A DNA stretch of 13,111 nt from a virus: UHGV virus genome UHGV-2002320; one strand, written 5' to 3'. The position numbers and the translations under genes are program-made. The notes beneath the pieces are model-generated. The model was given only the letters and a program-made list of their open reading frames with translations. It did no database searches and was not told the origin of the DNA. Shown in pieces: positions 451-13,111 of this stretch. Position 1 is the first letter of the stretch, and each line of letters opens with the position of its first letter.

Positions 451-2895
451 TTAAATTTCAATAACATTCTCTATTTCTGTGTCAATTTTTAATAACTGAC
501 TAATTTCATTGTGAACTTCTAGATTATTTTCTTTAGTTTCAATAGAGATAATCAAACTAAATCTTGCAATACTAGATTGCCTATTTTCTTTTTTTAGCTC
601 CTTCCACCATCCACTCACAGGATAAATGGCTATGAACTTTTTGTCAGCTAATTCTAATGCTGTTCCGCTCCAAATGTCGCTATGAATAGACCCTCTATTC
701 CTTAGGGTTGGTCCTAATAACCATTTATTAGCATCACTTTCTCCAGCATCAAACTCTTGGTTTTCTTCTTTAAACTTTTTATTTATTCTTGAAACAAATT
801 CTCCGGACTCTTCACCAGGGCTATTAAAATCAAATCTTAAACCGAAAGATCCATATTTATATTTATTATCCCAACCTCTTTCGCCTGGATTAGGCTCTAC
901 AAAATAAGATAACGTTACTCTTAACTTTACGTCCTCTCCACCAATTTTTTCTAATTCAGAGGAAGGCCATGGTAATGAATAAAGAATCATCTTGTTTAAC
1001 TTGCCTTCAACTGTGTAGGGCTGTATTGAATCTTCGACTATTAAATTAACAGATTGATCACCGCTTGAAATTGCTTTTGCTAAATTAGGGAAACCATAAC
1101 CTGACATTCTTAAAAGAAATTCCACATTCTGCTTTGTACGTAAAGGCTCATGTCTTTCGAGGATTTTCTTTGGCCAGGATGCGCTATGGACAACTAAAGC
1201 TCGGATTGTTTCAGGCCAATAATTTGGATACTGACTCCATAGTTTAGAGATGAAAAAAGCAGCCATACCTGTTGCAGCGCTTGTCTCAGAGAAACTACTA
1301 AAATACTCCCCTTTAGTGAATTCATGAGAAAGTGTTAATAAGCTAAGCTCTTCTAAATTAGCAGAAAAGTTGAGATGTGAATCATAACCAAAATTCCCTC
1401 CTTCAAAAACGACATCCGGCTTAAAAGGTGAATTATTTTTCCATATCCTAGATGTTGTAGATGATGGCCCTAAATCAGTTAGTTCAGCAATAACATCATA
1501 ACCATCTGTTATAACGTTATCTTCACTTGCCCAATATCCAACTGTTAGAGCATTATATGAATTAGCGGGATCTTCAATTGAATAAGTTATATTTGCATCC
1601 GGATAATCAGAAATTAGATTAGGAGGAAGATTGCCTGCAGATAATATAAATAATCTTTTCTCTGGATCGTCAGGACTACCTGAAGCAAGTCTGTCGATTG
1701 CTGCGGACCAACTAGTAGGCATCCCTCTTAAAGTATTTGGAGAGGACACTGCCATCGTAAATATCCGACGTTCTGAGGGTTGTTTGGCTTCTATATTGTA
1801 TATAGCATCAGTGGTAATAGCGCCATAAAGTTGAGGTTCATTTACACCAGTATCAGGTAAAATTTTAGCTGACTCAATAACTCCACTTATCGGCAATTCT
1901 TTAGACTGTATCGCGAATTTAAGATCACCAAATAATGCCAATCCAGCAATACCGGTTCCATGACCTTTTAAATCGCTATTCGCCCACTGAGGTTCGGCTA
2001 CAACTAGTGCATTTTCATTTACAAATGTATTAAGCAGTGGGTGCTGAGAGTTAATACCTGTATCAAGTATGCAAATAGGAATTAATGTATTTAGTTTTCT
2101 ATAAGTTATACCATTAACCCACTGAAAAGCTTCAGCTGGTTTCAAATCAAGAAAATCTACACTCACAGCTTTCGAGGGCCGAACTTCCGAAATAATCTCC
2201 GTCATCTGTTGAAGCAGCATTAACTGATGCATAGAAGCACAGACTATTTTTACAACTCTATCTTTAAAACTAAGTGTGCCTTGTTTAACTGTTATACCCA
2301 ACTGACCACATAGTTGTTCAAATTTATTCAGAAGTATTTCTAGTTCTATATCACTTGAGTCCAGCCATAACTCAAGATCATGTATTTTATAAATATCTTC
2401 AGGGAACTCATCCTGACTAAACCATAAAGCCCGAAAATTGCCATATTCTATATTAGATATGGATTCTATAAATGGTTGATTCTTCGGGTTACCTTTTTTT
2501 GTATTCTCAGTAGCATATTCTTGCAGAATCTTTTCAAGTTTAGAAAAACCGTCTACGGGCACAGAAACGTTTGCCATTGTCATACCATCTATAGTATTAA
2601 CAGACATTATTTTCATCCCATTTGCATCTAAACTTTTTAAAACCATTCGTTCTTTAATTTCTGGATTTTCTTGAAAAGTCATTACTACCTTTTGAGGTTC
2701 ATTCCCTTTTCCTAATAACATCTCCACTGTTTTTTTTCTTTCATTATATATATTTATAGCAGATTCTAAACTATGCCTCACTTTTGCAAAATGGGCATTT
2801 CTGTTAACAGGACTTTTACCCTTTTTCGGGCCCCCTGTAACTGGTTTATAGTCAATAAGCTTCTGTGGTAAGTCGATTTTAATGTGAGCCTTCAT
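451..2895 (-). CDS. Subtilisin-like (S8 family) serine protease, 814 aa, with long N- and C-terminal extensions
   Basis: Catalytic motifs in canonical Asp-His-Asn-Ser order: ICILDTGI (Asp278, codon 2062..2064), GHGTGIAG (His312, 1960..1962), ILSAGN (oxyanion Asn422), SETSAATGMAAF (Ser539, codon 1279..1281). About 270 aa precede the Asp motif and about 270 aa follow the Ser motif. Start lies 18 bp after the ATPase stop with an AGGGA ribosome-binding site. Markedly AT-rich compared with the element core. Confidence 0.85.
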   Translation of the reverse strand: MKAHIKIDLPQKLIDYKPVTGGPKKGKSPVNRNAHFAKVRHSLESAINIYNERKKTVEMLLGKGNEPQKVVMTFQENPEIKERMVLKSLDANGMKIMSVNTIDGMTMANVSVPVDGFSKLEKILQEYATENTKKGNPKNQPFIESISNIEYGNFRALWFSQDEFPEDIYKIHDLELWLDSSDIELEILLNKFEQLCGQLGITVKQGTLSFKDRVVKIVCASMHQLMLLQQMTEIISEVRPSKAVSVDFLDLKPAEAFQWVNGITYRKLNTLIPICILDTGINSQHPLLNTFVNENALVVAEPQWANSDLKGHGTGIAGLALFGDLKFAIQSKELPISGVIESAKILPDTGVNEPQLYGAITTDAIYNIEAKQPSERRIFTMAVSSPNTLRGMPTSWSAAIDRLASGSPDDPEKRLFILSAGNLPPNLISDYPDANITYSIEDPANSYNALTVGYWASEDNVITDGYDVIAELTDLGPSSTTSRIWKNNSPFKPDVVFEGGNFGYDSHLNFSANLEELSLLTLSHEFTKGEYFSSFSETSAATGMAAFFISKLWSQYPNYWPETIRALVVHSASWPKKILERHEPLRTKQNVEFLLRMSGYGFPNLAKAISSGDQSVNLIVEDSIQPYTVEGKLNKMILYSLPWPSSELEKIGGEDVKLRVTLSYFVEPNPGERGWDNKYKYGSFGLRFDFNSPGEESGEFVSRINKKFKEENQEFDAGESDANKWLLGPTLRNRGSIHSDIWSGTALELADKKFIAIYPVSGWWKELKKENRQSSIARFSLIISIETKENNLEVHNEISQLLKIDTEIENVIEI

Positions 2896-2913
2896 AATCC
2901 AGTCCCTATGTAA

Positions 2914-3897
2914 TTATTTATATGCTTTTCTCTCTTCTAAAACCTTTTGAAGGTCTATTTGATCTATTTTCTTTAAATTATTGATAATAGCAAATTTTAT
3001 CGCATCATCACAACTTTTTGAAACCTCTGAATAACTTAGCCCCTCAGCGCTACTCAACAAACTCCCCCACTCTTTTACGTTTAATTCAAAAGAATGATAT
3101 TTTGACTTAATTAATTCAATTAAGTTATCTTTTTCAGGCAAAGAATATTCGATCACATCATCAAACCTACGATATAAAGCACTATCCAGGATTTCTTTAT
3201 GATTCGTCGCACTAATAATCAAACTATCAGAATGATGCTCATCTAATAATTGTAAAAAAGTATTTAAAACACGGCGAATCTCACCTACATCATTATGCAT
3301 GCTTCTTTTTGAACCTATTGTATCGAACTCGTCGAACAAATAGACCCCTCTATTCATATTGATATATTCAAAAATACTTCGTAGTTTAGACGATGTTTCT
3401 CCCATAAATTTCGTTATAAGAGAATCCATTCTTACAGTAAAAAGAGGGAAATGTAATTCATGAGCAACAACGCTTGCCGTTAAAGTTTTACCAGTGCCTG
3501 GTGGACCATATAGTAGTAAATGTCTTCTAGGGACAAGACCATACTGTCTAATTTTAGATGCATTTTTATTCTCTTCTAAAAAACGCAATATCTTACTCCT
3601 GACGTCATTTGAAAGAATGACATCTGAAATTTTATTAGTCGGATGAGAAACAGTAAAAAGATCATTAGAGGAATGATTTATTACAGCAGTACTCGACGAA
3701 AGTACTCGAGGGTAATTGTTCCCTTCGTTAGCTTGTAACTTAGCCTTTTCTACAAGCAATCTCAACTCATCGGCGAATTTTCCATGACCTATCTTTGCTT
3801 CATGAGCAGCAATCTGTAGTACTACAGTCAAAAACTTGCGATCATCGCGTGCGATAAAATTTTTTACTAACGCTTTTAGTTGGTTTGCACTAGCCAT
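2914..3897 (-). CDS. AAA+ ATPase of the classic AAA clade, 327 aa
   Basis: Walker A GPPGTGKT (3484..3507), Walker B VYLFDEFD, sensor-1 ISATN, arginine-finger region SALYRRF. About 120 aa N-domain precedes the ATPase core. AGGA ribosome-binding site 8 nt upstream of the ATG. First gene of a two-gene operon with the protease. Confidence 0.9.
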   Translation of the reverse strand: MASANQLKALVKNFIARDDRKFLTVVLQIAAHEAKIGHGKFADELRLLVEKAKLQANEGNNYPRVLSSSTAVINHSSNDLFTVSHPTNKISDVILSNDVRSKILRFLEENKNASKIRQYGLVPRRHLLLYGPPGTGKTLTASVVAHELHFPLFTVRMDSLITKFMGETSSKLRSIFEYINMNRGVYLFDEFDTIGSKRSMHNDVGEIRRVLNTFLQLLDEHHSDSLIISATNHKEILDSALYRRFDDVIEYSLPEKDNLIELIKSKYHSFELNVKEWGSLLSSAEGLSYSEVSKSCDDAIKFAIINNLKKIDQIDLQKVLEERKAYK

Positions 3898-3948
3898 GAT
3901 TTAGTCCTGGTTTAAAGGCATTTAAAATCGTTTGAAAAGCCCCTCATG

Positions 3949-3974
3949 ATCATATCATTACAGACTTACTTCAA
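3949..3974 (-). promoter_or_regulatory. Candidate sigma70 promoter for the ATPase-protease operon
   Basis: On the minus strand: TTGAAG (-35, + coords 3969..3974) and extended -10 TGaTATGAT (+ coords 3949..3957), about 50 bp upstream of the ATPase ATG. The 14-nt spacer is short, so this is a weak prediction. Confidence 0.25.
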
Positions 3975-4197
3975 TCCAGAAAGCAGCATCGAGCAATTAA
4001 ACAAAATTAGTCAGCGTGCGCAGCCCCGCACGCCTGCCTGCTTCGCTTAACAGACTGGTTTTCATGCATGCCATAAATCGTCTCAGAAGCCACCAAACAA
4101 GGGCTTTCTCGTCAAAAATGGTGCATAAGACTCATGCGTTTTCATGCGCCATAGACATGCACTCATGCGCTCTCAGGCCAGCCAGGGAAAAGGTGTT

Positions 4198-4223
4198 AAA
4201 AATCCCGGTACTCGACCGGGATT
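4198..4223 (-). terminator. Intrinsic terminator downstream of the late (sid/psu/ogr-like) operon
   Basis: 9-bp perfect inverted repeat AATCCCGGT (4201..4209) / ACCGGGATT (4215..4223) with a 5-nt loop. On the minus strand the stem is followed by TTTTTAAC. It sits 20 bp after the Ogr-like stop at 4243. Confidence 0.45.
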
Positions 4224-4242
4224 ACTTGGGCGTTTTTTCTAA

Positions 4243-4524
4243 TCAGACAGGAATCTGCTGACGGCTTGACAGTTTTGACGCGGAGCCATAGCGATTGAGC
4301 GTTTGCTGTTGTTTTACCGGGGTTTGTGATTTGTCTGGTTCCTGTTCATTGCGCCGGGGTTTCATGATTATCTTATCCACACTCTCCAGTGCCGTAAATG
4401 TGCAGGAACATTCCAGATTCTGGCACTGATACCACGAGCGTTTAACTGACGGAGCTTCATAGGCTGCTGTTCTGGCGTGTGCAACTGTACCGCATTCCGG
4501 ACATTTAAGTGCCATTAATATCAC
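4243..4524 (-). CDS. Ogr/Delta-family zinc-finger late transcription activator, 93 aa
   Basis: CPECGTVAHARTAAY...YQCQNLECSCTF matches the Cys-x2-Cys...Cys-x4-Cys signature and surrounding residues of P2 Ogr / P4 Delta (AHART, QCQN, ESV..I.KP). Overlaps the preceding gene by 4 bp (ATGA). Confidence 0.8.
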   Translation of the reverse strand: MILMALKCPECGTVAHARTAAYEAPSVKRSWYQCQNLECSCTFTALESVDKIIMKPRRNEQEPDKSQTPVKQQQTLNRYGSASKLSSRQQIPV

Positions 4525-5072
4525 TCCTGTATATCGTTAATGTCATTCAGGCGTTGCTGAAAACGCAGATGTTGTGCCGGGGTGTAAGAACCCTGGCAAT
4601 CACGAATCATCCCGGGGTCAGGCATCAAACCGGATTCATCCAGGATCTCACGATAATCCCCGGCAATTTCAGGCGGTGTTATTGCCAGCTGGCGAACCAG
4701 AGCACTGCGTAATATACGGGACGCAACGTCAACCCCTCCGCGCCCCTTCAGGAACGGAGCCAGTGCAGATGTCAGGGCTGCCCCATTCGCCTGCATAAAA
4801 TTGCTGAGAGCGGCTTCTGTGCAGGCCTCCATCAGTAAATGCTGCGCGTAAATGCATTCGCGCGCAGCACAGTTAATTTGCCATTTCAGCACATCCAGAC
4901 GTTCCCGCAGTAATTCGAGCTGTCGGGCATAATCTGCTGGTTTTTCTGTGGCAGCGAGGAGAGATGTTATCTGTTGTTCAACGGCTTTTCGGCTCTCACT
5001 ATGTCCGGCCCACAGAATACGGGCATTCCGAAAACTGGTAAGTGCCTGGTCAGGCGTGCCTCGGGCCGTCAT
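4521..5072 (-). CDS. psu: Psu-like protein (polarity suppression / capsid decoration family), 183 aa
   Basis: Size and operon position match P4 Psu. Recognisable similarity to remembered P4 Psu segments (L..LR....V.KWQ.N.AA; G.AL..ALAP.L; TPAQ). Start overlaps the upstream gene stop by 4 bp. Confidence 0.6.
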   Translation of the reverse strand: MTARGTPDQALTSFRNARILWAGHSESRKAVEQQITSLLAATEKPADYARQLELLRERLDVLKWQINCAARECIYAQHLLMEACTEAALSNFMQANGAALTSALAPFLKGRGGVDVASRILRSALVRQLAITPPEIAGDYREILDESGLMPDPGMIRDCQGSYTPAQHLRFQQRLNDINDIQE

Positions 5073-5812
5073 ACTGCTTTCTCCTTCTCAGCGAGTTCCT
5101 GACGAACCTTAATTTTATGCATAGCTGCCGGAGAGAGTTGATTACTGAAATCCAGACGCGCCGCATAATCCGGGGCAACTCCCGCCAGTTTAAACACCGG
5201 GTCCTGCTCAGGCATCGCATCGTTAGCCAGAGCCGGTCTGGTGATATGTTTATGAATAAAGTCTTTCAGCACTGTGTCCGGGTCATTAACTGAATTCACC
5301 ACACCCACAACGGCACTGGCTTCCCGGCCCATTGTGGATTTAAGCAGGCTCAGCGTCTGAATAAGCGCTTTTCCATGCGACTGCATAAAATCTTCCCAGA
5401 TTTGTTTTGCGCGAATATCCACAAGAATATTATGCGCGTGGATATACTTTCCGGCTAATTCTGCAGCTTTCTGCGGCAAAAGTGCATTTTCGCTTTCCTG
5501 AGCCGCCAGCAGCTCATCAAAATCCTCAAGCGTTTCTCGTCCCAGCGCAATTTCCGTGCGCAGTTTTTTCATTTCCTTTGAGACCACGCCCTGACTTTCA
5601 CGAAACAGCGTGCGCCACTCCTCATTCAGTGTGTTCGTCGTGGCTTCCATTTCAGCGCGACGCTGGCGGATTGTCGCAATATTATCCGCTGCCGCTTTCT
5701 GCTGACGACGTGCTTCAAGCCATGCGTTTCTGGCTGTGTTCATGGTTTCCAGTGCCCGCTGCGTTACAGCCGGAAAAGTGGAAAGGTTGTTATTCACTGC
5801 GGTGTTGTTCAT
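5069..5812 (-). CDS. Sid-like (capsid size determination / external scaffold) or Psu-family paralog, 247 aa
   Basis: Size is close to P4 Sid (244 aa) and it is the first gene of the late operon, preceded by TGT-N12-ACA dyads. Strong ribosome-binding site (AGGAG, 5-nt spacing). The assignment rests on position and size, not on motifs. Confidence 0.45.
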   Translation of the reverse strand: MNNTAVNNNLSTFPAVTQRALETMNTARNAWLEARRQQKAAADNIATIRQRRAEMEATTNTLNEEWRTLFRESQGVVSKEMKKLRTEIALGRETLEDFDELLAAQESENALLPQKAAELAGKYIHAHNILVDIRAKQIWEDFMQSHGKALIQTLSLLKSTMGREASAVVGVVNSVNDPDTVLKDFIHKHITRPALANDAMPEQDPVFKLAGVAPDYAARLDFSNQLSPAAMHKIKVRQELAEKEKAV

Positions 5813-5846
5813 GACTTCTCCTGTCGGGTTGGTTCGTTACGTCAAT

Positions 5847-5902
5847 TGTGTCGTGGCTGACACAAGCACACTATCGGTGATCAGTGTGTGGTGGCTGGCA
5901 CA
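5847..5902 (-). promoter_or_regulatory. P2/P4-type late promoter region with two TGT-N12-ACA dyads (Ogr/Delta binding-site consensus)
   Basis: TGTGTCgtggctGACACA at 5847..5864 (perfect 6-bp inverted arms) and TGTgtggtggctggcACA at 5885..5902. Both fit TGT-N12-ACA and resemble each other. The second is centred about 80 bp upstream of the sid-like ATG. Confidence 0.5.
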
Positions 5903-5989
5903 ACGGGCGCTTGCGGTTATTCAGACGTGGCTATGAAAGCCAGCCAGATAAAAATGCCCTCTGTTTCAGTCTGCTTTATGTCCCTGATG

Positions 5990-6180
5990 CGGTGGAACAG
6001 GTGAAACATGTGTTACAGCTTTGTTTTATAAGACATTTATATACACTGCACCGGTGGAACATCGCGGGTAACAAGGTGGAACAGCGGATTGGCTGGCGTT
6101 ACATCTGTTCCACCTCACTATTTCAGAAGGTGGAACAGGTTCAGCCCTGTAAAATACGGTTGTTCCACCTGTTTCACCTG
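5990..6180. repeat. Iteron cluster: at least 6 copies of GGTGGAACA / TGTTCCACC plus 2 variant copies, in both orientations; candidate replication origin / crr-like primase-binding region
   Basis: GGTGGAACA at 5991, 6053, 6075, 6129; reverse complement TGTTCCACC at 6106 and 6161; variants GGTGAAACA at 6000 and TGTTTCACC at 6170. The motif is one base longer than the P4 type I iteron TGTTCACC as I recall it. Located directly downstream of the primase gene, as crr is in P4. Confidence 0.65.
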
Positions 6181-6212
6181 TTACCCTTAATAAATAAGAC
6201 TCACGCAAAGCC

Positions 6213-8885
6213 TTAACCCGGCACCTCGCTGTTGAAGACATAGAGCCTGCGGGGATTCATCTCTGGCGGGCGAATGGTTGTCTGGAGTTTGCCATCAGTG
6301 GAGGGCAGCAGGTATCCACGATCTGCGCACAGACGCGCCACCTTGCGCGGGTCAAATCCCCTGCAGATTTCTTTCCAGCCGGACGGCATGACATAGAACG
6401 TAGTGACAGCTTCCGTGCCCTGCGCGGTACTGCCTTTCTCCACCCTGCGCCAGCCCACCATATTGCCGGGGCGGTTGCGCTCGTCATACCAGTCTGCAAA
6501 GCGGCTGTACTGATTCGCGGTGAAGAAACTGCGAACCTGCTCCAGTGCGGCGATATCTTCCTGATTGGCGGTGTGCCCGCGATCTTTCAGCCATGCGTTC
6601 AGGCAGACGCGGGTTGCCCGCAGTGCTTCACCCTCAGGCCAGCCGGTGATACCCAGACGGGTTGCCAGTTCACCTGCCATCGCCACCAGAGCAAAGCGGT
6701 TCACAGCCCGGCCCACCTGATTGCCTGCATCTTTCGGAGTCAGGGCGGCAGCATATTCCTTCATCAGCGATTTTGCCTGTGCCGTTAGTCCGTTAAGATC
6801 AGCGGTCAGTGCTTTCAGCCACTCCCGGAACGGCGAACCGTAGTAGCAGGACGTGGCCCATTCAAGATGCTCTGCCAGAGCCTTGCCGCTGTCGAAGCCG
6901 TGCAGCTCCTCAAAAACGCCAAACTTCCCGGAATCGCTGGGGATCTGGATCATCCTGACTTCCATCCCGGCAAAAGTACGCTCACCGGCCTTTGCCGCAT
7001 GTTCGGTCAGAGACAACTCGCCAGTTGAAAAGAACAACAGGCGCCACTGCTTACGGGTACGCAGCTCACCGTCCGTACCGGCACGGCCCTTGCCCTGACC
7101 GTTTGCCAGCATGTAGGCGATATTGCCTGCCTCGCGTCCGTCAACTTCCCGGATCTCATCAAGCATCATGGCGGCATCGTTGCGGCGGCTGGCGCATCCC
7201 TCCAGCGCGTTGCCGGTGGCCCGCCATGTCTGCCAGTAGTCAGGCCCGCCGCAGACGGAGGTTGCCGCTTTCATGGTGGTGGTCTTACCGTCTGTCGATT
7301 CCCCTTTGAGGTGGTAGCCGCCGCCGTCCATACCAACCAGCCGTAACAGTGGTGCAGCAAAGGCCAGGCTGACAGCAAATGCCACGCGGGAGTTGCCGGT
7401 ACAGTAGCGGGATACATGCTCCCGCCATTCCTCTGATGTGCCCGACACGCGGAAATCACGCCCCTGCACGGAAGTGGTCTGGAGAATGACACCCTCTGCA
7501 CCTTCACCGCTGACCTCATCCTGCAGGACGTAAACCTGACCATGCCAGCCAGTACGACTGACGCAGGTCACGCGGCGTTCCGGTTTACACAGTGAGATAT
7601 ATTCCATCAGGCGTGCGCGTGCCTCACCGGTGGTGCTGATATAAGACAGCCCGTTAACCAGCAGTACCCGGCGCAGTTCCTCACCACTGCCGCTCAGCAT
7701 TTCCATCGGCATCGCCCAGCGGCGACACTCACCCCACGTATCTTCCCATTCCAGCAGTCGTCCGAAGTTACCGCCATCGGCATCGCAGGTGATTGCCGTC
7801 ACGCGCAGCGGGCTGCATATTTTGACGTTCTGGATCTCCGTCTCACCGTTGCGCTGTACCTGCTTTTCATACCAGAGATATTCCTGGGTAAGACGGAACC
7901 CGTGCGGCAGTTGCGTGCGGCCTTCCCCGCACAGTACCAGACCGTTGCGAAAGGCTTCACGGGCACGGGTAATACCGTGCTCCCGATGAAAGTCATTCCA
8001 GTCAGCCTTAATCTCTCCTGGTGGCAGCGTCATCCAGCCGCCAACAGCTTTTGCCGCCCGTTCAGCAAAGGCTCTGCCGGGATTCTCACCTCCGTCCTGA
8101 AAATCGTTATCACCGGCGATGATAATTTTTACCTCAGGCCAGCGTGCCCGCAGCGACTGCGCTACATTGGGCAGGTTGCCCGCAGATATGGCAGCCACTA
8201 CGCATCCGGCAGTGAGCTGACTTACCGTCAGCGCCGTAGCGTAACCTTCGGTAATCACCACCTGTACCGGTGGTTCAGACGGTAACGGGCTGAGCGACAC
8301 AAACGCGCCTTTCATCGTGCTGCCGGGCAGTATGCTTTTTTCACCCGTCGGGGCGATAAGCTGTGCACCAGTCACGGCTCCGGTGTTGGTCGTGAGTGGT
8401 AACAGCAGGGAACCGGCAGGAAAATCCTTACCGCTGATATGCTGCACGCTTCCGGTCAGAGAGGCCGGGTATCCGGCGAACCCTTTTCCTGTCAGATAGG
8501 CGCTTTCTCCCGTGTGGCTCTCTTTCATCAGCGCCGCCACGGTAAGACCCATGTCGCGTTTAGGGGCTTTTTGTCTGGCAGGCTTAACAGGCAGTTCCTG
8601 CACATCCGGCACATTAAGCACCTGCGCCACCTCCTGCGCAGCCTTTCTGACGCTGTAACCGGTTACGAGCTTAACCAGATCCAGACCGTCACCATTGCCA
8701 CACTGGCTGCAGATCCACGTCCCGCGCCCGTCAAGGTCATCAAGGCGAAAACGATCCTTGCCCCCACATTTCGGGCAGGGACCGTGCCTGCCGTTTTCAG
8801 GTACATCAATACGCAGCATCTGGAGAATAACGGGCCATTTCCCCCGTGCGGCGGCTGAAATCTGCGTAACCGTTTGTATTGTCAT
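6213..8885 (-). CDS. P4 alpha-like primase/helicase, 890 aa (zinc ribbon + TOPRIM + P-loop NTPase)
   Basis: N-terminal zinc ribbon CPKCGG..RFR...CSQCG, TOPRIM-like core (VVITEGYATALT ... IIIAGDNDF), downstream P-loop GESTDGKTTT. Translationally coupled to the upstream gene (ATGA overlap at 8882..8885). GC-rich. Confidence 0.9.
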   Translation of the reverse strand: MTIQTVTQISAAARGKWPVILQMLRIDVPENGRHGPCPKCGGKDRFRLDDLDGRGTWICSQCGNGDGLDLVKLVTGYSVRKAAQEVAQVLNVPDVQELPVKPARQKAPKRDMGLTVAALMKESHTGESAYLTGKGFAGYPASLTGSVQHISGKDFPAGSLLLPLTTNTGAVTGAQLIAPTGEKSILPGSTMKGAFVSLSPLPSEPPVQVVITEGYATALTVSQLTAGCVVAAISAGNLPNVAQSLRARWPEVKIIIAGDNDFQDGGENPGRAFAERAAKAVGGWMTLPPGEIKADWNDFHREHGITRAREAFRNGLVLCGEGRTQLPHGFRLTQEYLWYEKQVQRNGETEIQNVKICSPLRVTAITCDADGGNFGRLLEWEDTWGECRRWAMPMEMLSGSGEELRRVLLVNGLSYISTTGEARARLMEYISLCKPERRVTCVSRTGWHGQVYVLQDEVSGEGAEGVILQTTSVQGRDFRVSGTSEEWREHVSRYCTGNSRVAFAVSLAFAAPLLRLVGMDGGGYHLKGESTDGKTTTMKAATSVCGGPDYWQTWRATGNALEGCASRRNDAAMMLDEIREVDGREAGNIAYMLANGQGKGRAGTDGELRTRKQWRLLFFSTGELSLTEHAAKAGERTFAGMEVRMIQIPSDSGKFGVFEELHGFDSGKALAEHLEWATSCYYGSPFREWLKALTADLNGLTAQAKSLMKEYAAALTPKDAGNQVGRAVNRFALVAMAGELATRLGITGWPEGEALRATRVCLNAWLKDRGHTANQEDIAALEQVRSFFTANQYSRFADWYDERNRPGNMVGWRRVEKGSTAQGTEAVTTFYVMPSGWKEICRGFDPRKVARLCADRGYLLPSTDGKLQTTIRPPEMNPRRLYVFNSEVPG

Positions 8886-9265
8886 ACTTCCCCCTGATAC
8901 AACGTCACACCGGTACTGCAGAAGTCATCAAAGGCCGCCGGAAGCGTGCGGTACATCTCCGCCATCACTTCACAGCCGCGCGCGGTCAGTACCGGCGGCG
9001 CGGTCAGCAGTGACGGCTCCAGCATGTCAGTCAGCAGTGCCAGCGCGGCAGCGGCGCCCTGTGCTTCGCCGTACTCGTTAATCAGTACGCACTCGATATG
9101 CAGCGCAATGGCCATTTCAATACGCTCCACCGTCAGGCTGTGCGGACCATACTGATCACTGCCAGTTTCGTTCAGCATTTTCTGCCGCCATGCTGAAGCA
9201 ATAGCCCGCCGGTAAAGCGCGGTGGTCATTTCTGCCGGGAAAATGGAAACCTGCGGCTGGTTCAT
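8882..9265 (-). CDS. Hypothetical protein, 127 aa, in the replication operon upstream of the primase
   Basis: ORF with ATGA overlaps at both ends (9262..9265 and 8882..8885), indicating operon membership. No motif recognised. Confidence 0.6.
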   Translation of the reverse strand: MNQPQVSIFPAEMTTALYRRAIASAWRQKMLNETGSDQYGPHSLTVERIEMAIALHIECVLINEYGEAQGAAAALALLTDMLEPSLLTAPPVLTARGCEVMAEMYRTLPAAFDDFCSTGVTLYQGEV

Positions 9266-9577: not shown

Positions 9578-9937
9578 TCAGAGAAACTTTGAATAGTGAC
9601 CGTCATCAGGCTCAGCAGAACGCCATATGCTACGCTCCCGCCAGCGGATAAATAGCACAGACGGATGCAGTGTCAGCGGGCCGGAACCACTACCGCCTGC
9701 AGGAGCTGGTGCAGGCTTAAAGAGCGGTACATCAAACAGGCGCGTATATCGCTGTTCAAACCATGCCAGAGGGCAGGAAGAAAGCTGGTTGTCGCTGTCA
9801 TGACGTATCAGCACTTCACAGCTGAATTCAGGATTAACCAGCGCCACAGAGGGCGAGGCTTCTATTAATCGGATAATCGTGACCGTCCAGCCACGTTCAT
9901 GCTGCCAGCGTTCGCCGGGATGCGGATAATTACGCAT
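9578..9937 (-). CDS. Hypothetical protein, 119 aa (start moved to the internal ATG; the ORF track gives 9578..9967)
   Basis: GGAGG lies 5 nt upstream of the ATG at 9935..9937 (MRNYPHPG...). This start overlaps the stop of a small upstream ORF by 8 nt. The longer track start at 9967 has no comparable ribosome-binding site. Confidence 0.5.
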   Translation of the reverse strand: MRNYPHPGERWQHERGWTVTIIRLIEASPSVALVNPEFSCEVLIRHDSDNQLSSCPLAWFEQRYTRLFDVPLFKPAPAPAGGSGSGPLTLHPSVLFIRWRERSIWRSAEPDDGHYSKFL

Positions 9938-10443: not shown

Positions 10444-10734
10444 TTAGGGAGTAGATGATAATCTATTCCCTTTATTAATTGCTCTTGCCTTATTTCTCAT
10501 CCCCTCAAACTGTTGACCTGAGTTTTCTTCAAACCCATCTCGCCACTTATAATAATCAGCAGCGCGCCATCGTGACATCCGACCTATTTTTATAGGTTTT
10601 GGAAAGCGATTCAGAGAAATCAATCGATAAATCCATTTATCACTTAATAAACAATCGGAAGTAATAAACTTCATATCGATCAGAGAATCCATTGAAGGTC
10701 GTTGCAAAGTAGTATTATCATGTTTAGATAACAT
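10444..10734 (-). CDS. alpA: AlpA-family phage transcriptional regulator (helix-turn-helix), up to 96 aa; true start may be an internal Met
   Basis: The segment SDKWIYRLISLNRFPKPIKIGRMSRWRAADYYKW matches the AlpA signature (..IYRLI..G.FPKP.K.G.R...W...). AT-rich. Confidence 0.7.
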   Translation of the reverse strand: MLSKHDNTTLQRPSMDSLIDMKFITSDCLLSDKWIYRLISLNRFPKPIKIGRMSRWRAADYYKWRDGFEENSGQQFEGMRNKARAINKGNRLSSTP

Positions 10735-10859: not shown

Positions 10860-11684
10860 TTAGTTAAACTTAATGTTTTTCATGCAACTACGTAGCAAAC
10901 TAACAACAGTATCATAGCTCAAAGGCGGTTCTCCGGTCTTAGGCCAGAACTCACTGGCATGTTGAAAAAGATAATCAGCTATCGCTGCTGGACTCTCTCT
11001 TCTTAGCCTCATATCACGATGATAGAGCGAAATAATAGCCATGAGTATTTCAGCTCGAGGAACAGCATGTTTTTGTTTTTGCGCCTCAGATTGTGATTTA
11101 TATTTATTGGCGTTTTTTATCCGCTTTTGTTCGCATAAGACTATATCAATGAATTTTTGAATCTGTACCTTTGTAATCCACAAAACCTCAAAAAGATAAT
11201 AATTTTCTTTTTCATCATAATTTACATAAAGAATTACCTTACAATTTATATTAGGCGTACCCGCCAGTAGAAAATGAATAGGCCAGGAATCCGGTTGCCC
11301 CTCATGCTTAACTAACAGATCTTTATATTCATAATCAACAGCCCATAAACCGGATATGAAGCATCGAATAAAACCATTTTTATCAATTAAATTATCTTCA
11401 TCAGGGATTCTTATAGAACTTAAGTCTGACAACATAATATTGCCATTTCTATCTCGTGGTAAATATTTCAGATTAGATAAGAACTCATCCATTTGACCAT
11501 CAATCTTCAAACCACATGAAACATCATACTCATCATCATGGAATTCCATGCATAGCTCTACATCTCGTTCTCTGGCAAACCAGAGTATATCCTTTTCACT
11601 ACAACCAATTTTTTCTGAAGCTTCATCCAACTGGTAGTAATCTCTGAGCAGAGAATCAGTATTATTAATTTTTAAAATATTCAT
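10860..11684 (-). CDS. Hypothetical protein, 274 aa, AT-rich orphan cargo gene directly downstream of the integrase
   Basis: Long ORF whose ATG overlaps the integrase stop (ATGA at 11681..11684). Composition is strongly AT-biased compared with the element core. No catalytic or binding motif recognised. Confidence 0.7.
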   Translation of the reverse strand: MNILKINNTDSLLRDYYQLDEASEKIGCSEKDILWFARERDVELCMEFHDDEYDVSCGLKIDGQMDEFLSNLKYLPRDRNGNIMLSDLSSIRIPDEDNLIDKNGFIRCFISGLWAVDYEYKDLLVKHEGQPDSWPIHFLLAGTPNINCKVILYVNYDEKENYYLFEVLWITKVQIQKFIDIVLCEQKRIKNANKYKSQSEAQKQKHAVPRAEILMAIISLYHRDMRLRRESPAAIADYLFQHASEFWPKTGEPPLSYDTVVSLLRSCMKNIKFN

Positions 11685-12868
11685 TTATGAGTACCAATTT
11701 GCTCAGATAAATAATTAGCATACCATTGCATCATTTCTCTTCTCCCTTCGAGATATTGGGCATGGTTATAAATTCCACGAATAGAGTTTTTGTCCGAATG
11801 AGCAAGCTGGGTTTCAATCCAAGCGCTGTTAAATCCTTTCTCATGTAGGATTGTACTCATCGTATGCCTGAAACCATGCCCCGTAACACGCCCTGCATAT
11901 CCAATACGTTTAAACACCTGATTAATGCTTGCTTCACTCATAAATTTGCTGGGATCGTTGCGTCCAGGGAACATCAGCGGGTAGTTCCCAGTTAGTTCTT
12001 TCAAACTTTTGAGATGGGATAATGCTTGTTTTGACAACGGGACAATATGGCTCCTACGCATTTTCATACGTTCTTTTGGGATCTCCCACACCGCATTATC
12101 AAAATCCACCTCTCGCCACTCACCTGCTCGTAGTTCTCCAGTTCGTAGACCTGTCAGGATAAGTAAATGCGCCCCCAACAATACAATTGGACTTCCTGAA
12201 TAAGAATTAAGGGCATTAAAGAACTCCGGTAGTTCGTTGGCTTTGAGGAATGGATAGTGGACTGCTTCATGTCCTTGCATCGCACTGGCAAGATCCGGTG
12301 CCGGATTGTAGATTGCCCTACCCGTTACGATGGCATAGCGAAAAACTTCACCGCATCGCTGACGGACTTTCTTCGCTTTCTCCATAGCGCCTCGAGCTTC
12401 TATCAACCTCAGAACTTCAAGCAGTTCAAGGGGCTGAATATCAGCTATAGGTCTGTGCCCAATATGCGGGAAAATGTCTTTCTCGAATGCCTCAATGATG
12501 TCGGAAGCATAGCCCTCAGACCATTTGGGTGATTTCATTTTGTGCCACTCTAACGCCACTTCTCTGAATGGGTTAAGTGTCTCACTCGCTGCATTTAAAG
12601 CCTGCTTTTTGGCTTTTTTGACTTCGCCGGGATCTTCACCTGCTGCGAGTAGTTTCTTCGCGTCTTCTCGTTTTTGTCTGGCATCAGCAAGTGTGACTGT
12701 TGGATAAACACCAAAGGACAATCGTTTCTCTTTACCAGCAAAACGGTATTTCATACGCCAGTAACGCGAGCCATTAGGTTCGACCTGAAGGTATAGGCCA
12801 CCTCCATCAAACAGCTTGTAGCTCTTCTCTTTTCCTTTCGCAGCTTCAACCTTGCGGGCATTCAGCAT
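11681..12868 (-). CDS. int: P4-type tyrosine integrase (about 395 aa from the likely ATG; the ORF track extends to a TTG at 12940)
   Basis: N-terminal region (M)LNARKVEAAKGKEKSYKLFDGGGLYLQVEPNGSRYWRMKYRFAGKEKRLSFGVYP is the hallmark of P4-family integrases. C-terminal catalytic region contains HGFRHT and the LAHSD...YNH segment. Lies next to the tRNA 3' end in the same orientation. Confidence 0.9.
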   Translation of the reverse strand: MLNARKVEAAKGKEKSYKLFDGGGLYLQVEPNGSRYWRMKYRFAGKEKRLSFGVYPTVTLADARQKREDAKKLLAAGEDPGEVKKAKKQALNAASETLNPFREVALEWHKMKSPKWSEGYASDIIEAFEKDIFPHIGHRPIADIQPLELLEVLRLIEARGAMEKAKKVRQRCGEVFRYAIVTGRAIYNPAPDLASAMQGHEAVHYPFLKANELPEFFNALNSYSGSPIVLLGAHLLILTGLRTGELRAGEWREVDFDNAVWEIPKERMKMRRSHIVPLSKQALSHLKSLKELTGNYPLMFPGRNDPSKFMSEASINQVFKRIGYAGRVTGHGFRHTMSTILHEKGFNSAWIETQLAHSDKNSIRGIYNHAQYLEGRREMMQWYANYLSEQIGTHK

Positions 12869-13035
12869 CATTGGGGGCACATTTCCTAGACCGAACAGAA
12901 CATGCCCCTGATTGTGCCCCCAACCGCGTGTTGATTTCAAGAGACAAGGGTTGACCTCAAACGTATGAAAACAACGTAATATATATGTTTTTAAATGATT
13001 TTGTTGATGTGGGTTGACTTGGGAAAACTAGGTGA

Positions 13036-13111
13036 TGGTGCCGATAATAGGAGTCGAACCTACGACCTTCGCATTACGAATGCGCTGCTCTACCAACTGA
13101 GCTATATCGGC
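13036..13111 (-). tRNA. thrW: tRNA-Thr, anticodon CGT, 76 nt with encoded CCA
   Basis: The reverse complement of 13036..13111 folds by eye into a cloverleaf: acceptor GCCGATA, D-arm GCTC/GAGC, anticodon loop TTCGTAA, T-arm GGTTCGA, 3' CCA. From memory it matches the enterobacterial thrW tRNA, a known integration site. Its last 18 nt are duplicated at 211..228. Confidence 0.9.

What the first reader, a model, noticed from the sequence alone, without database searches (positions are those of the whole stretch)
5990..6180. Dense iteron array downstream of the primase gene: putative origin or cis-replicating region
At least six copies of GGTGGAACA and two one-base variants lie within about 190 bp, in both orientations, with a mirrored pair (GGTGGAACAGGTGAAACA at 5991..6008 and TGTTCCACCTGTTTCACC at 6161..6178) bracketing the cluster. 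The motif is close to the P4 type I iteron TGTTCACC as I remember it, and the location matches P4 crr. The extra C would imply a co-evolved primase specificity.
Basis: partly seen in the sequence, partly recalled or inferred. Interest (0 to 1): 0.5.

Follow-up and report, generated by a model that had tools for sequence, protein, structure and literature searches.

The report
Replication origin of a P4-like satellite
The repeat cluster is real and is most likely the single replication origin of a P4-like phage satellite integrated in E. coli. It is built like the origins of staphylococcal and enterobacterial pathogenicity islands, and it is recognised by the C-terminal winged-helix domain of the adjacent primase-helicase. 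This is a well-supported but fairly ordinary kind of element.

Summary
There are six exact GGTGGAACA and two GGTGAACA-like variants (GGTGAAACA) at 5991-6178, in both orientations, and nowhere else in the 13.1-kb element. Three degenerate copies and a 30%-GC spacer at 6009-6052 complete the array.

The window is a whole P4-like satellite prophage (int, alpA, cnr-like, primase, sid, psu, delta, IetAS cargo) next to tRNA-Thr. The array starts 26-35 bp after the primase stop.

In 47 related loci from many Enterobacterales genera, the same layout follows the homologous primase. The 9-mer differs by lineage (GGTGGAACA, GGTGTAACA, GGGGTAACA, CTGGTAACA, GTGGATACA, TGTAGTACA and others). There are 360 sites inside these arrays against 1 in 379 kb of flanks. 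Iteron bases are conserved while spacers drift.

Between primases that are 90% identical, all six exact copies carry the same G-to-T change.

The primase shares only its N-terminal primase domain with P4 alpha. Its helicase (DUF927) and C-terminal winged-helix region match SaPI Rep and SCCmec Cch, not the P4 alpha DNA-binding domain.

Substitutions concentrate in that winged helix when the iteron class switches.

Best reading: a SaPI/PICI-type single ori, not a P4 crr. No experiment was possible. Novelty: new member of a known kind.

The parts
5991..6187 (.). Whole iteron array (putative ori): 8 strong and 3 degenerate 9-bp sites plus an AT-rich spacer. It begins 26 bp after the primase stop codon (6213-6215).
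   Evidence: The same layout is found after the homologous primase in 47 loci.
5991..5999 (+). Iteron GGTGGAACA (distal doublet, copy 1)
6000..6008 (+). Iteron variant GGTGAAACA (distal doublet, copy 2)
   Evidence: It reads GGTGGAACA in L003 and L040.
6011..6019 (-). Degenerate site GCTGTAACA (2 mismatches)
   Evidence: This is weak evidence; it may be no more than part of the spacer.
6009..6052 (.). AT-rich spacer (30-32% GC), the candidate DNA-unwinding/melting site
   Evidence: An equivalent low-GC gap (GC 0.17-0.33) lies at the same offset in most lineages.
6053..6061 (+). Iteron GGTGGAACA
6065..6073 (+). Degenerate iteron CGGGTAACA
   Evidence: offset 140 in primase orientation. Conserved as CGGGTAACA in class B loci.
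6075..6083 (+). Iteron GGTGGAACA
6106..6114 (-). Iteron GGTGGAACA
6129..6137 (+). Iteron GGTGGAACA
6161..6169 (-). Iteron GGTGGAACA (proximal triplet)
6170..6178 (-). Iteron variant GGTGAAACA (proximal triplet)
6179..6187 (-). Degenerate iteron AGGGTAACA (proximal triplet)
   Evidence: offset 26. The proximal +++ triplet at about 26/35/44 is conserved across lineages.
6213..8885 (-). Primase-helicase initiator (890 aa) with Zn_Ribbon_Prim, Toprim_3, DUF927 and a C-terminal domain
   Evidence: Pfam scan. The N-terminal 320 aa are 38% identical to P4 alpha. Residues 415-640 match SaPIbov1 Rep 8TCH and Cch 5DGK. It matches phrog_1139 over its full length.
6216..6386 (-). Codons for residues 834-890: the predicted winged helix-turn-helix and candidate iteron-recognition module
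8882..9265 (-). DUF5375 protein, homologous to P4 ORF106 and overlapping the primase start. A role as replication-control partner is inferred only.
   Evidence: Pfam scan. P4 ORF106 is annotated as DUF5375 in the P4 record. It is conserved upstream of the primase in related loci. That P4 ORF106 is Cnr, the copy-number regulator, is from my own knowledge.

Best explanation
The array at 5991-6187 is the vegetative replication origin of this P4-like satellite, organised like SaPI and PICI origins.

Proposed mechanism: after induction, the 890-aa primase-helicase encoded immediately upstream binds the 9-bp iterons through its C-terminal winged-helix domain. It oligomerises on the two oppositely oriented site clusters and melts the 44-bp AT-rich stretch at 6009-6052. 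It then loads itself as a hexameric helicase and primes with its own Toprim primase domain.

Shown here (computationally):
- the array exists and is non-random;
- it is the only such cluster in the element;
- its position and layout are conserved after homologous primases across Enterobacterales;
- iteron bases are under constraint while spacers are not;
- the iteron sequence co-varies with the protein lineage, and preferentially with its winged-helix end;
- the protein's helicase and C-terminal region are of the SaPI Rep/Cch type.

Inferred by analogy with SaPI Rep and EcCICFT073 Pri-Rep: binding, melting at the AT-rich stretch, self-loading and origin activity.
For: 1. Non-randomness and uniqueness. 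There are 8 sites in 188 bp and none elsewhere in the 13.1-kb element.

2. Family-wide conservation. In 47 loci the lineage-specific iteron occurs 360 times within 330 bp after the primase stop, against once in 379 kb of flanking sequence. Site offsets and orientations are nearly superimposable: +++ at about 26/35/44, - at about 77, + at about 99, -- at about 130/140, a low-GC gap at about 160-205, and --- at about 197-215. Three loci that seemed to lack an array have a GTGGGAACA array about 1.1 kb downstream, after an inserted integrase-like gene.

3. Selective constraint. Within class A, 4 of 72 iteron columns vary against 32 of 116 spacer columns (p = 1e-4). Within class B the figures are 2 of 72 against 42 of 116 (p = 1e-8).

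4. Concerted change. Between primases that are 90% identical, the fixed iteron difference is the same fifth-base G-to-T change in all six exact copies.

6. Specificity mapping. In 7 iteron-switch contrasts against 12 same-class contrasts, substitutions in residues 834-890 relative to residues 330-800 number 62:196 against 25:174 (p = 0.0025). Residues 846, 861, 862, 864 and 867 change only in switch contrasts, and residue 870 changes in 6 of 7. L025 and L028 differ by 21 residues in all, only 5 of them after residue 800, yet use GGTGTAACA and TGGGTAACA respectively.

7. Published paradigm. SaPI iterons lie immediately downstream of rep, flank an AT-rich region and are read by the Rep C-terminal winged-helix domain (PMC9371898). 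Gram-negative PICIs have the same organisation, and an EcCICFT073 rep-ori plasmid replicates in a way that depends on both rep and ori (PMC6092414).

8. Distant relative. A 12,152-bp circular E. coli record carries a TOPRIM-DUF927 protein that is 33% identical. Right after its stop come GTTGGTTCA x3, an AT-rich stretch, and TGAACCAAC x3.

9. Helical phasing. Site centres are phased at 10.5 bp (R = 0.80), which is suggestive only.
Against: - There is no experimental evidence for binding, melting or origin firing in this element or any close relative. Everything functional is by analogy.
- The AT-rich stretch is not central. It has 2-3 sites on one side and 7-8 on the other, unlike the symmetric SaPI picture.
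- The sites that directly abut the AT-rich stretch point the same way. The inverted sets are the outer triplets.
- The winged-helix segment 858-872 is also hypervariable between same-class proteins (17% against 24% divergence). No single residue explains the A/B (G/T) switch across distant lineages. L051 uses the same iteron with a quite different C-terminal sequence.
- The contrasts used are few and were hand-picked.
- The AF2 model is moderate overall (pLDDT 80, pTM 0.52).
Confidence: 0.8

Rival explanations
1. A P4-crr-type cis-acting enhancer. The array binds the primase but is not where replication starts. A separate origin elsewhere in the element fires and needs this array in cis, as in P4.
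For: The array lies downstream of the primase gene, as P4 crr does. The element is P4-like in its sid, psu, delta, DUF5375 and int genes. The motif resembles the P4 type I repeat.
Against: No second cluster of the motif, or of any relaxed variant, exists in the whole element or within 3 kb of the primase in 47 relatives. There are no 120-bp direct repeats. The helicase and DNA-binding half of the protein is not homologous to that of P4 alpha. The array contains its own AT-rich stretch, as complete SaPI and PICI origins do.
Confidence: 0.07
2. Primarily a regulatory or handcuffing array. Sites bound by the primase, or by another satellite protein, control copy number or act as a transcriptional barrier or operator between the early operon and the downstream Delta-dependent sid-psu-delta late operon. 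They do not serve as the origin.
For: The array sits between the end of the early operon and the late promoter dyads at 5847-5902. No terminator is predicted after the primase. A cnr-like DUF5375 gene is retained.
Against: In L039, L047 and L056 the array has moved with respect to neighbouring genes but is kept. Helicase-only relatives (L050, L051) and a PICI-like episome without sid (L060) keep the same kind of array right after the gene. The array therefore tracks the initiator, not the late promoter. A built-in AT-rich stretch is not needed for an operator. A secondary regulatory role is not excluded.
Confidence: 0.1
3. A non-functional repeat cluster, a remnant of a mobile repeat, or a coding sequence (ORFs 5884-6216 on the + strand and 6026-6241 on the - strand).
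For: Two mechanical ORFs overlap the region.
Against: Iteron columns are conserved while spacers drift, with indels that are not multiples of three. The layout is conserved across genera with different 9-mers. RefSeq annotation of the matching E. coli genomes places no gene there. No Rfam family matches there.
Confidence: 0.02

Closest known systems
SaPI replication origins with Rep / Pri-Rep (SaPI1, SaPIbov1, SaPI5) and the related SCCmec Cch helicase
   Same: - The iteron cluster lies immediately 3' of the initiator gene.
- It has 6-12 short repeats in both orientations with an internal AT-rich stretch.
- The initiator is a self-loading hexameric helicase of the same family: DUF927 matches 8TCH and 5DGK by sequence, and the C-terminal region matches by predicted fold.
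- Recognition is by a C-terminal winged helix (PMC9371898).
- The primase is fused to Rep, as in SaPI5.
   Different: - The host is Gram-negative and the satellite is P4-like, parasitising P2-type helpers (sid, psu, delta).
- The iterons are 9 bp rather than 5-6 bp.
- The AT-rich stretch is off-centre.
- The primase domain is a Zn-ribbon plus Toprim domain 38% identical to that of P4 alpha.
- Sequence identity to the SaPI Rep C-terminal domain is only 11-14%.
Gram-negative PICI origins (EcCICFT073 pri-rep-ori; Fillol-Salom et al. 2018, PMC6092414)
   Same: - Same host species.
- The same rule applies: iterons flank an AT-rich region right after the rep stop. I read this directly in CFT073: CTGTCTACC repeats at L058 4000-4240.
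- Function was shown there by a rep-ori plasmid assay.
   Different: EcCICFT073 Pri-Rep has the D5_N, DUF5906 and Pox_D5 domains, which is the helicase and C-terminal-domain type of P4 alpha. It is not DUF927, and BLASTP finds no similarity to the window protein. The iteron sequences are unrelated.
Phage P4 ori and crr with alpha protein
   Same: - It is a satellite of the same family.
- The N-terminal primase domain is homologous.
- Short G-rich repeats ending in AACA occur in both orientations.
- The array is downstream of the primase gene (like crr) and about 180 bp upstream of sid (like ori).
- A DUF5375 gene lies upstream of the primase in both.
   Different: - P4 needs two clusters 4.5 kb apart (ori and crr), and here there is one.
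- crr consists of two 120-bp direct repeats, which are absent here.
- P4 uses the 8-mer GGTGAACA, and this element uses the 9-mer GGTGGAACA.
- The alpha helicase and DNA-binding domains (D5_N, DUF5906, Pox_D5) are replaced by DUF927 and a Rep-like C-terminal domain.
- There is no profile similarity between the two C-terminal domains.
Iteron plasmid origins (pPS10, RK2, R6K, F type)
   Same: Repeated initiator-binding sites lie next to an AT-rich unwinding element. Initiator and iteron co-evolve to give replicon specificity.
   Different: Those iterons are 17-22 bp direct repeats bound by non-helicase WH1-WH2 Rep proteins, and they depend on DnaA boxes and host DnaB loading. Here the sites are 9 bp, lie in both orientations, and are read by a helicase-initiator. 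No DnaA box lies in or near the array.

Membership tests
SaPI/PICI-type satellite ori | Located immediately 3' of the rep / pri-rep gene | tested here: met
   The first site begins 26 bp after the stop codon, and the first strong site 35 bp after it. The same holds in 44 of 47 relatives. In the other 3 an inserted gene separates primase and array.
SaPI/PICI-type satellite ori | About 6-12 short iterons | tested here: met
   There are 8 strong and 3 degenerate 9-bp sites. The sites are longer than the 5-6 bp quoted for SaPIs.
SaPI/PICI-type satellite ori | AT-rich region with iterons on both sides | tested here: met
   The stretch 6009-6052 is 30-32% GC, with sites at 5991-6008 on one side and 6053-6187 on the other. 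The arrangement is asymmetric, with 2-3 sites against 7-8.
SaPI/PICI-type satellite ori | At least two iterons on each side, pointing in opposite directions | tested here: inconclusive
   The outer doublet or triplet sets are inverted relative to each other: 5991 and 6000 on the + strand against 6161, 6170 and 6179 on the - strand. However, the sites directly abutting the AT-rich stretch (6000+ and 6053+) have the same orientation.
SaPI/PICI-type satellite ori | Initiator is a Rep-type self-loading helicase with a C-terminal winged-helix domain | tested here: met
SaPI/PICI-type satellite ori | Iteron sequence is specific to the cognate initiator | tested here: met
   At least 9 iteron classes track primase lineages. 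All copies change in concert between 90%-identical proteins. Substitutions are enriched in the wHTH in switch contrasts. This is a correlation only.
SaPI/PICI-type satellite ori | Initiator binds and melts the ori, and a rep-ori fragment drives plasmid replication | not testable with these tools
   This needs EMSA or footprinting and a plasmid replication assay such as the one in PMC6092414.
P4 crr (cis replication region) | Lies downstream of the alpha/primase gene | tested here: met
   The primase stop is at 6213 and the array at 5991-6187. In P4, crr is at 4291-4590 and alpha at 4636-6969.
P4 crr (cis replication region) | Two about 120-bp direct repeats, each carrying type I repeats | tested here: not met
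   The repeat finder reports no direct repeat longer than 19 nt in 5700-6400.
P4 crr (cis replication region) | Works with a separate ori carrying the same repeats elsewhere in the genome | tested here: not met
   There is no other occurrence at one mismatch or fewer apart from one isolated hit at 3500. No relaxed-core cluster exists. In 47 relatives there is 1 stray hit in 379 kb.
P4 crr (cis replication region) | Repeats are the P4 type I 8-mer TGTTCACC, bound by the alpha C-terminal (Pox_D5-type) winged helix | tested here: not met
   The motif is a 9-mer. TGTTCACC occurs once in the window, at 9937. The protein lacks Pox_D5 (compared). hhalign probability against the P4 alpha C-terminal-domain profile is 0.1%. 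PDB 1KA8 is absent from the fold hits.
Classical iteron-plasmid origin | 17-22 bp direct iterons, DnaA box(es) and a WH1-WH2 Rep initiator | tested here: not met
   The sites are 9 bp and lie in both orientations. No DnaA box lies in 5800-6300. The initiator is a primase-helicase.

The most novel reading that the evidence does not exclude
The family is a natural set of at least nine mutually orthogonal initiator-origin pairs: GGTGGAACA, GGTGTAACA, GGGGTAACA, TGGGTAACA, [C/G][T/A]GGTAACA, GTGGATACA, GYGGTTACA, TGTAGTACA and GTGGGAACA.

On this reading, specificity has been re-set repeatedly by one to five substitutions in the terminal winged helix (positions about 846 and 861-871). Each re-setting came with a concerted one- or two-base change in every iteron.

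The driver would be selection against cross-talk or incompatibility between co-resident satellites. Three genomes in the sample carry two elements each, always of different classes.

If true, the L025/L028, L023/L024 and window/L006 pairs give a nearly minimal, directly testable protein-DNA recognition code, and a toolkit of compatible small replicons.
Probability: 0.35. Interest if true: 0.55.

Novelty: new member of a known kind. Interest (0 to 1): 0.35.

Why it matters
It assigns a concrete, testable origin and initiator-recognition module to a common E. coli satellite. The array is present at 90% identity or more in 329 of 5,426 complete genomes. The element also carries a defence system.

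It shows that P4-like satellites do not all replicate the P4 way. This lineage carries a chimeric initiator, with a P4-type primase domain fused to a SaPI-Rep-type helicase and DNA-binding half, and a single PICI/SaPI-style ori in place of the bipartite ori and crr.

That finding bears on claims that the PICI-type ori organisation is exclusive to PICIs (PMC6092414). It also bears on claims that satellite replicases of different families are merely analogous (PMC10085698).

The lineage-specific iterons are also a practical marker for typing these elements and for predicting replicon compatibility.

Tried and rejected
- DNA search of the array against 50,697 phage records, in distant mode: no match.
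- Full-text search for the iteron strings: 1,305 papers, none relevant among those listed.
- Literature search for P4 crr and iterons gave only indirect hits. One call failed on a term that was too short.
- Rfam scan of the whole window: only the tRNA at 13039-13111.
- Sigma-70 promoter and intrinsic terminator scan of 5750-6300: none.
- DnaA boxes: none in the array. The five window hits are at chance level.
- P4 cos and whole-P4 DNA comparison with the window: nothing significant except the integrase. The script also picked up other loci stored in the same file, so that output was not otherwise used.
- Homology of the DNA-binding domain to the P4 alpha C-terminal domain was rejected by BLASTP, hhalign and fold searches.
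- A simple one-residue 'code' was rejected. Lys or Arg at position 866 fits the GGTG-type classes against the xxGGTAACA classes. It fails for GGGGTAACA (Lys) and TGTAGTACA (Arg).
- 'Some relatives lack an array' was rejected. L039, L047 and L056 carry it about 1.1 kb downstream, after an inserted gene.
- Coding potential of the overlapping ORFs was rejected from the substitution and indel pattern and the lack of any annotation.

Full report
**Observation.**
- The sequence at 5991-6178 contains six exact GGTGGAACA (5991+, 6053+, 6075+, 6106-, 6129+, 6161-) and two GGTGAAACA (6000+, 6170-), exactly as described.
- The outer pairs form the mirrored bracket 5991-6008 / 6161-6178.
- At one mismatch or fewer, the only other hit in 13,111 bp is an isolated GGTGGACCA at 3500. 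Shuffles give 2.5 hits per window, and none of 200 reaches 9.
- Shorter cores (GTGGAAC, TGGAACA) also occur only here.
- A relaxed pattern derived from relatives adds degenerate copies at 6065-6073(+), 6179-6187(-) and, weakly, 6011-6019(-).
- The stretch between the distal doublet and the next site (6009-6052) is 30-32% GC.
- Site centres are roughly in phase with a 10.5-bp helical repeat (R = 0.80). I treat this as suggestive only.

**Context.**
- The window is identical to a chromosomal segment found in many E. coli. In all, 329 of 5,426 complete genomes carry 5800-6300 at 90% identity or more.
- It spans a complete integrated element next to tRNA-Thr.
- All genes are on the minus strand:

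| Gene | Coordinates |
|---|---|
| integrase | 11681-12940 |
| 274-aa ORF | 10860-11684 |
| AlpA/Vis-like regulator | 10444-10734 |
| small ORFs, including an Icd-like one | – |
| DUF5375 (homologue of P4 ORF106) | 8882-9265 |
| 890-aa primase-helicase | 6213-8885 |
| the array | 5991-6187 |
| sid-like gene | 5069-5812 |
| psu | 4521-5072 |
| ogr/delta | 4243-4524 |
| IetA/IetS defence pair | 451-3897 |

- This is a P4-like satellite, but its gene order differs from P4. In P4, sid-delta-psu diverges from the alpha operon with ori between them, and crr lies beyond alpha next to attP.
- Here the array is both just downstream of the primase (as P4 crr is) and about 180 bp upstream of the sid start codon. 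In P4, the ori type I repeats end 170 bp upstream of sid.

**The initiator is only half P4-like.**
- The primase shares its Zn-ribbon and Toprim domains with P4 alpha: 38% identity over 321 residues, and nothing beyond that.
- P4 alpha continues with D5_N, DUF5906 and Pox_D5 domains. The window protein continues with DUF927.
- DUF927 residues 415-640 match the SaPIbov1 Rep (PDB 8TCH, E 6e-15) and the SCCmec Cch helicase (5DGK, E 3e-13).
- I modelled the C-terminal 251 residues with a 35-sequence alignment (pLDDT 80, and above 85 for most of the last 100 residues).
- Although that region has no sequence-level PDB match, Foldseek again returns 8TCH (E 8e-6) and 5DGK (E 2e-4).
- A profile of P4 alpha C-terminal domains shows no relationship to this family (hhalign probability 0.1%).
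- According to PMC9371898, SaPI Reps recognise iterons through a winged-helix domain in the C-terminal domain. Those iterons, 6-12 in number, lie immediately downstream of rep and are split by an AT-rich region.
- PMC6092414 reports the same organisation for Gram-negative PICIs. It also shows rep- and ori-dependent plasmid maintenance for EcCICFT073.
- I read that origin directly in CFT073: CTGTCTACC repeats around an AT-rich stretch right after the stop. Its Pri-Rep is of the D5_N/DUF5906/Pox_D5 type.
- The helicase and C-terminal-domain types are therefore shuffled among satellite families.

**Comparative evidence.**
- The primase family is widespread in Enterobacterales (984 hits).
- Using an alignment of 19 diverse members, I fetched 55 loci from species-representative genomes.
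- In 47 usable loci, the 330 bp after the primase stop contain the lineage's dominant 9-mer 360 times in total. The remaining 379 kb of these loci contain it once.
- The motif differs by lineage:
  - GGTGGAACA: the window, seven close relatives in Pantoea, Citrobacter, Enterobacter, Pseudocitrobacter and Shigella, and a distant Serratia helicase-only protein.
  - GGTGTAACA.
  - GGGGTAACA.
  - TGGGTAACA.
  - [C/G][T/A]GGTAACA, the commonest class.
  - GTGGATACA.
  - GYGGTTACA.
  - TGTAGTACA.
- Three loci first scored as lacking an array carry GTGGGAACA x10 about 1.1 kb downstream, after an inserted integrase-like gene.
- Offsets and orientations are nearly superimposable across classes. A low-GC gap (GC 0.17-0.33 in most lineages) sits at the same place.
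- A more distant TOPRIM-DUF927 protein (33% identity) on a 12,152-bp circular PICI-like E. coli record is followed at once by GTTGGTTCA x3, an AT-rich stretch, and TGAACCAAC x3.

**Constraint and co-variation.**
- I aligned eight class A and four class B arrays, whose primases are 90-98% identical.
- Iteron columns vary far less than spacer columns: 4 of 72 against 32 of 116 within class A (p = 1e-4), and 2 of 72 against 42 of 116 within class B (p = 1e-8).
- The fixed A-versus-B difference inside the six exact copies is the same fifth-base G-to-T change in every copy.
- On the protein side, several near-identical pairs use different iterons:
  - L023 and L024 have 31 differences.
  - L025 and L028 have 21 differences, only 5 of them after residue 800.
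  - L019 and L020 have 41 differences, 7 of them within residues 862-878.
- I compared seven iteron-switch contrasts with twelve same-class contrasts. Substitutions in the predicted winged helix (834-890), relative to the helicase and linker core (330-800), number 62:196 against 25:174 (odds ratio 2.2, p = 0.0025).
- Positions 846 (start of the putative recognition helix), 861, 862, 864 and 867 change only in switch contrasts. Position 870 changes in 6 of 7 switch contrasts against 2 of 12 controls.
- Caveats: the segment is hypervariable anyway, the contrasts are few and hand-chosen, and no single residue accounts for a given base change across distant lineages.

**Interpretation.**
- The best-supported reading (about 0.8) is a single SaPI/PICI-type origin.
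- In this model the primase-helicase binds the iterons through its C-terminal winged helix, melts the AT-rich stretch, loads itself and primes.
- Binding, melting and firing are inferred by analogy. Position, architecture, constraint, co-variation and initiator type are shown computationally.
- A P4-crr-like enhancer (about 0.07) is disfavoured. There is no second cluster and no 120-bp repeat, and the DNA-binding half of the protein is not P4-like.
- A mainly regulatory or handcuffing role (about 0.1) cannot be excluded as an additional function. However, the array follows the initiator gene, not the late promoter, in relatives with other neighbours.
- Chance or coding explanations are effectively excluded.

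**Resemblance to the P4 repeat.**
- GGTG-N-AACA (classes A and B and the GGTGAAACA variant) is the P4 8-mer GGTGAACA with one inserted base.
- The commonest class has the core GGTAACA, which is the P4 8-mer with one base removed.
- The whole set, P4 included, can be written GGT-N(0-2)-AACA.
- The two DNA-binding domains show no detectable homology, so this resemblance remains unexplained. It may be coincidence, convergence, or common ancestry of the two winged helices too old to detect.

**Novelty.**
- Iteron origins downstream of pri-rep are established for SaPIs and PICIs, so this is a new member of a known kind.
- What is less expected is the chimeric initiator in a P4-like satellite, and the replacement of P4's bipartite ori and crr by a single array.
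- The clean series of lineage-specific iterons is also less expected.
- I found no paper describing this origin. The library searched is incomplete, so I cannot rule out prior description.

Noticed in passing
window 5847-5864 and 5885-5902 (minus-strand promoter region upstream of sid, whose ATG is at 5812): There are two TGT-N12-ACA dyads: TGTGTCGTGGCTGACACA and TGTGTGGTGGCTGGCACA. They are 38 bp apart and conserved across class A and B relatives. They look like the Ogr/Delta activator sites of P2/P4 late promoters. P4 has TGTGTCAGGGCTGGCACA upstream of sid. If the start site lies 55 nt from the upstream dyad, the second dyad is centred near -18. The rule about -55 and -18 positions is from my memory of the P4 literature and was not checked here.
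   Followed up: partly
window 451-3897 (-): The cargo at the psu/delta-distal end is an IetA (AAA ATPase, E 1.5e-79) and IetS (S8 protease, E 4e-45) anti-phage defence pair. It sits where P4-like satellites keep their defence hotspot.
   Followed up: partly
whole window, compared with L001 (P4): The gene order is int-alpA-...-primase-ori-sid-psu-delta-hotspot, all co-directional. In P4, sid-delta-psu diverges from the alpha operon, and attP/int lie just beyond crr. psu and delta are also swapped relative to P4.
   Followed up: partly
window 6213-8885 (-): The initiator is chimeric. Residues 1-320 are P4-alpha-like primase (38% identity). The rest is a SaPI-Rep/Cch-like helicase and C-terminal domain. 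Conversely, the E. coli PICI EcCICFT073 has the P4-alpha-type helicase and C-terminal domain without the Toprim primase. Replication domains appear to be shuffled between satellite families.
   Followed up: partly
L050 (Brenneria corticis) and L051 (Serratia sp. Ag1), primase matches 3001-4692 and 3001-4689: These are 564-566-aa helicase-only relatives that lack the Zn-ribbon and Toprim half. They are still followed by full arrays: GGTGTAACA for L050 and GGTGGAACA x11 for L051. L051 uses the window's iteron although its C-terminal sequence is quite different.
   Followed up: no
L039, L047 and L056, positions about 5676-7100: An integrase-like ORF (starting MAIKKLDDGRYEVDIRPAGRNGKRIRRKF...) is inserted between the primase stop and a GTGGGAACA x10 array. 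It is the only departure from the 'immediately downstream' rule.
   Followed up: no
L003 and L046 (Pantoea stewartii ATCC 8199), L013 and L052 (Pantoea leporis R), L012 and L044 (Enterobacter intestinihominis): Three genomes carry two such elements each, and in each genome the two use different iteron classes (A/B, B/D and D/A). In P. stewartii the two primases are 90% identical. Three of three is not significant given the class frequencies, but it fits selection for replicon orthogonality.
   Followed up: no
L060 (NZ_CP148430.1, 12,152-bp circular record) 6514-6650: A PICI-like element (integrase, Icd-like, PerC, TOPRIM-DUF927) is deposited as a circular plasmid. It has a textbook symmetric ori right after the primase stop: GTTGGTTCA x3, about 45 bp of AT-rich sequence, then TGAACCAAC x3.
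   Followed up: partly
iteron consensus across loci and P4 (L001 9310-9413): All iteron classes of the family, and the P4 type I repeat, fit GGT-N(0-2)-AACA or close variants ending in ACA. Yet the two DNA-binding domains show no detectable homology. This is unexplained.
   Followed up: partly
window 8882-9265 (-): A DUF5375 gene, the family of P4 ORF106, is retained directly upstream of and overlapping a primase whose helicase and DNA-binding half is not P4-like. If it is a Cnr-type copy-number regulator, which is my recollection for P4 ORF106, its target surface on the initiator would have to be in the shared primase half or have been re-evolved.
   Followed up: no
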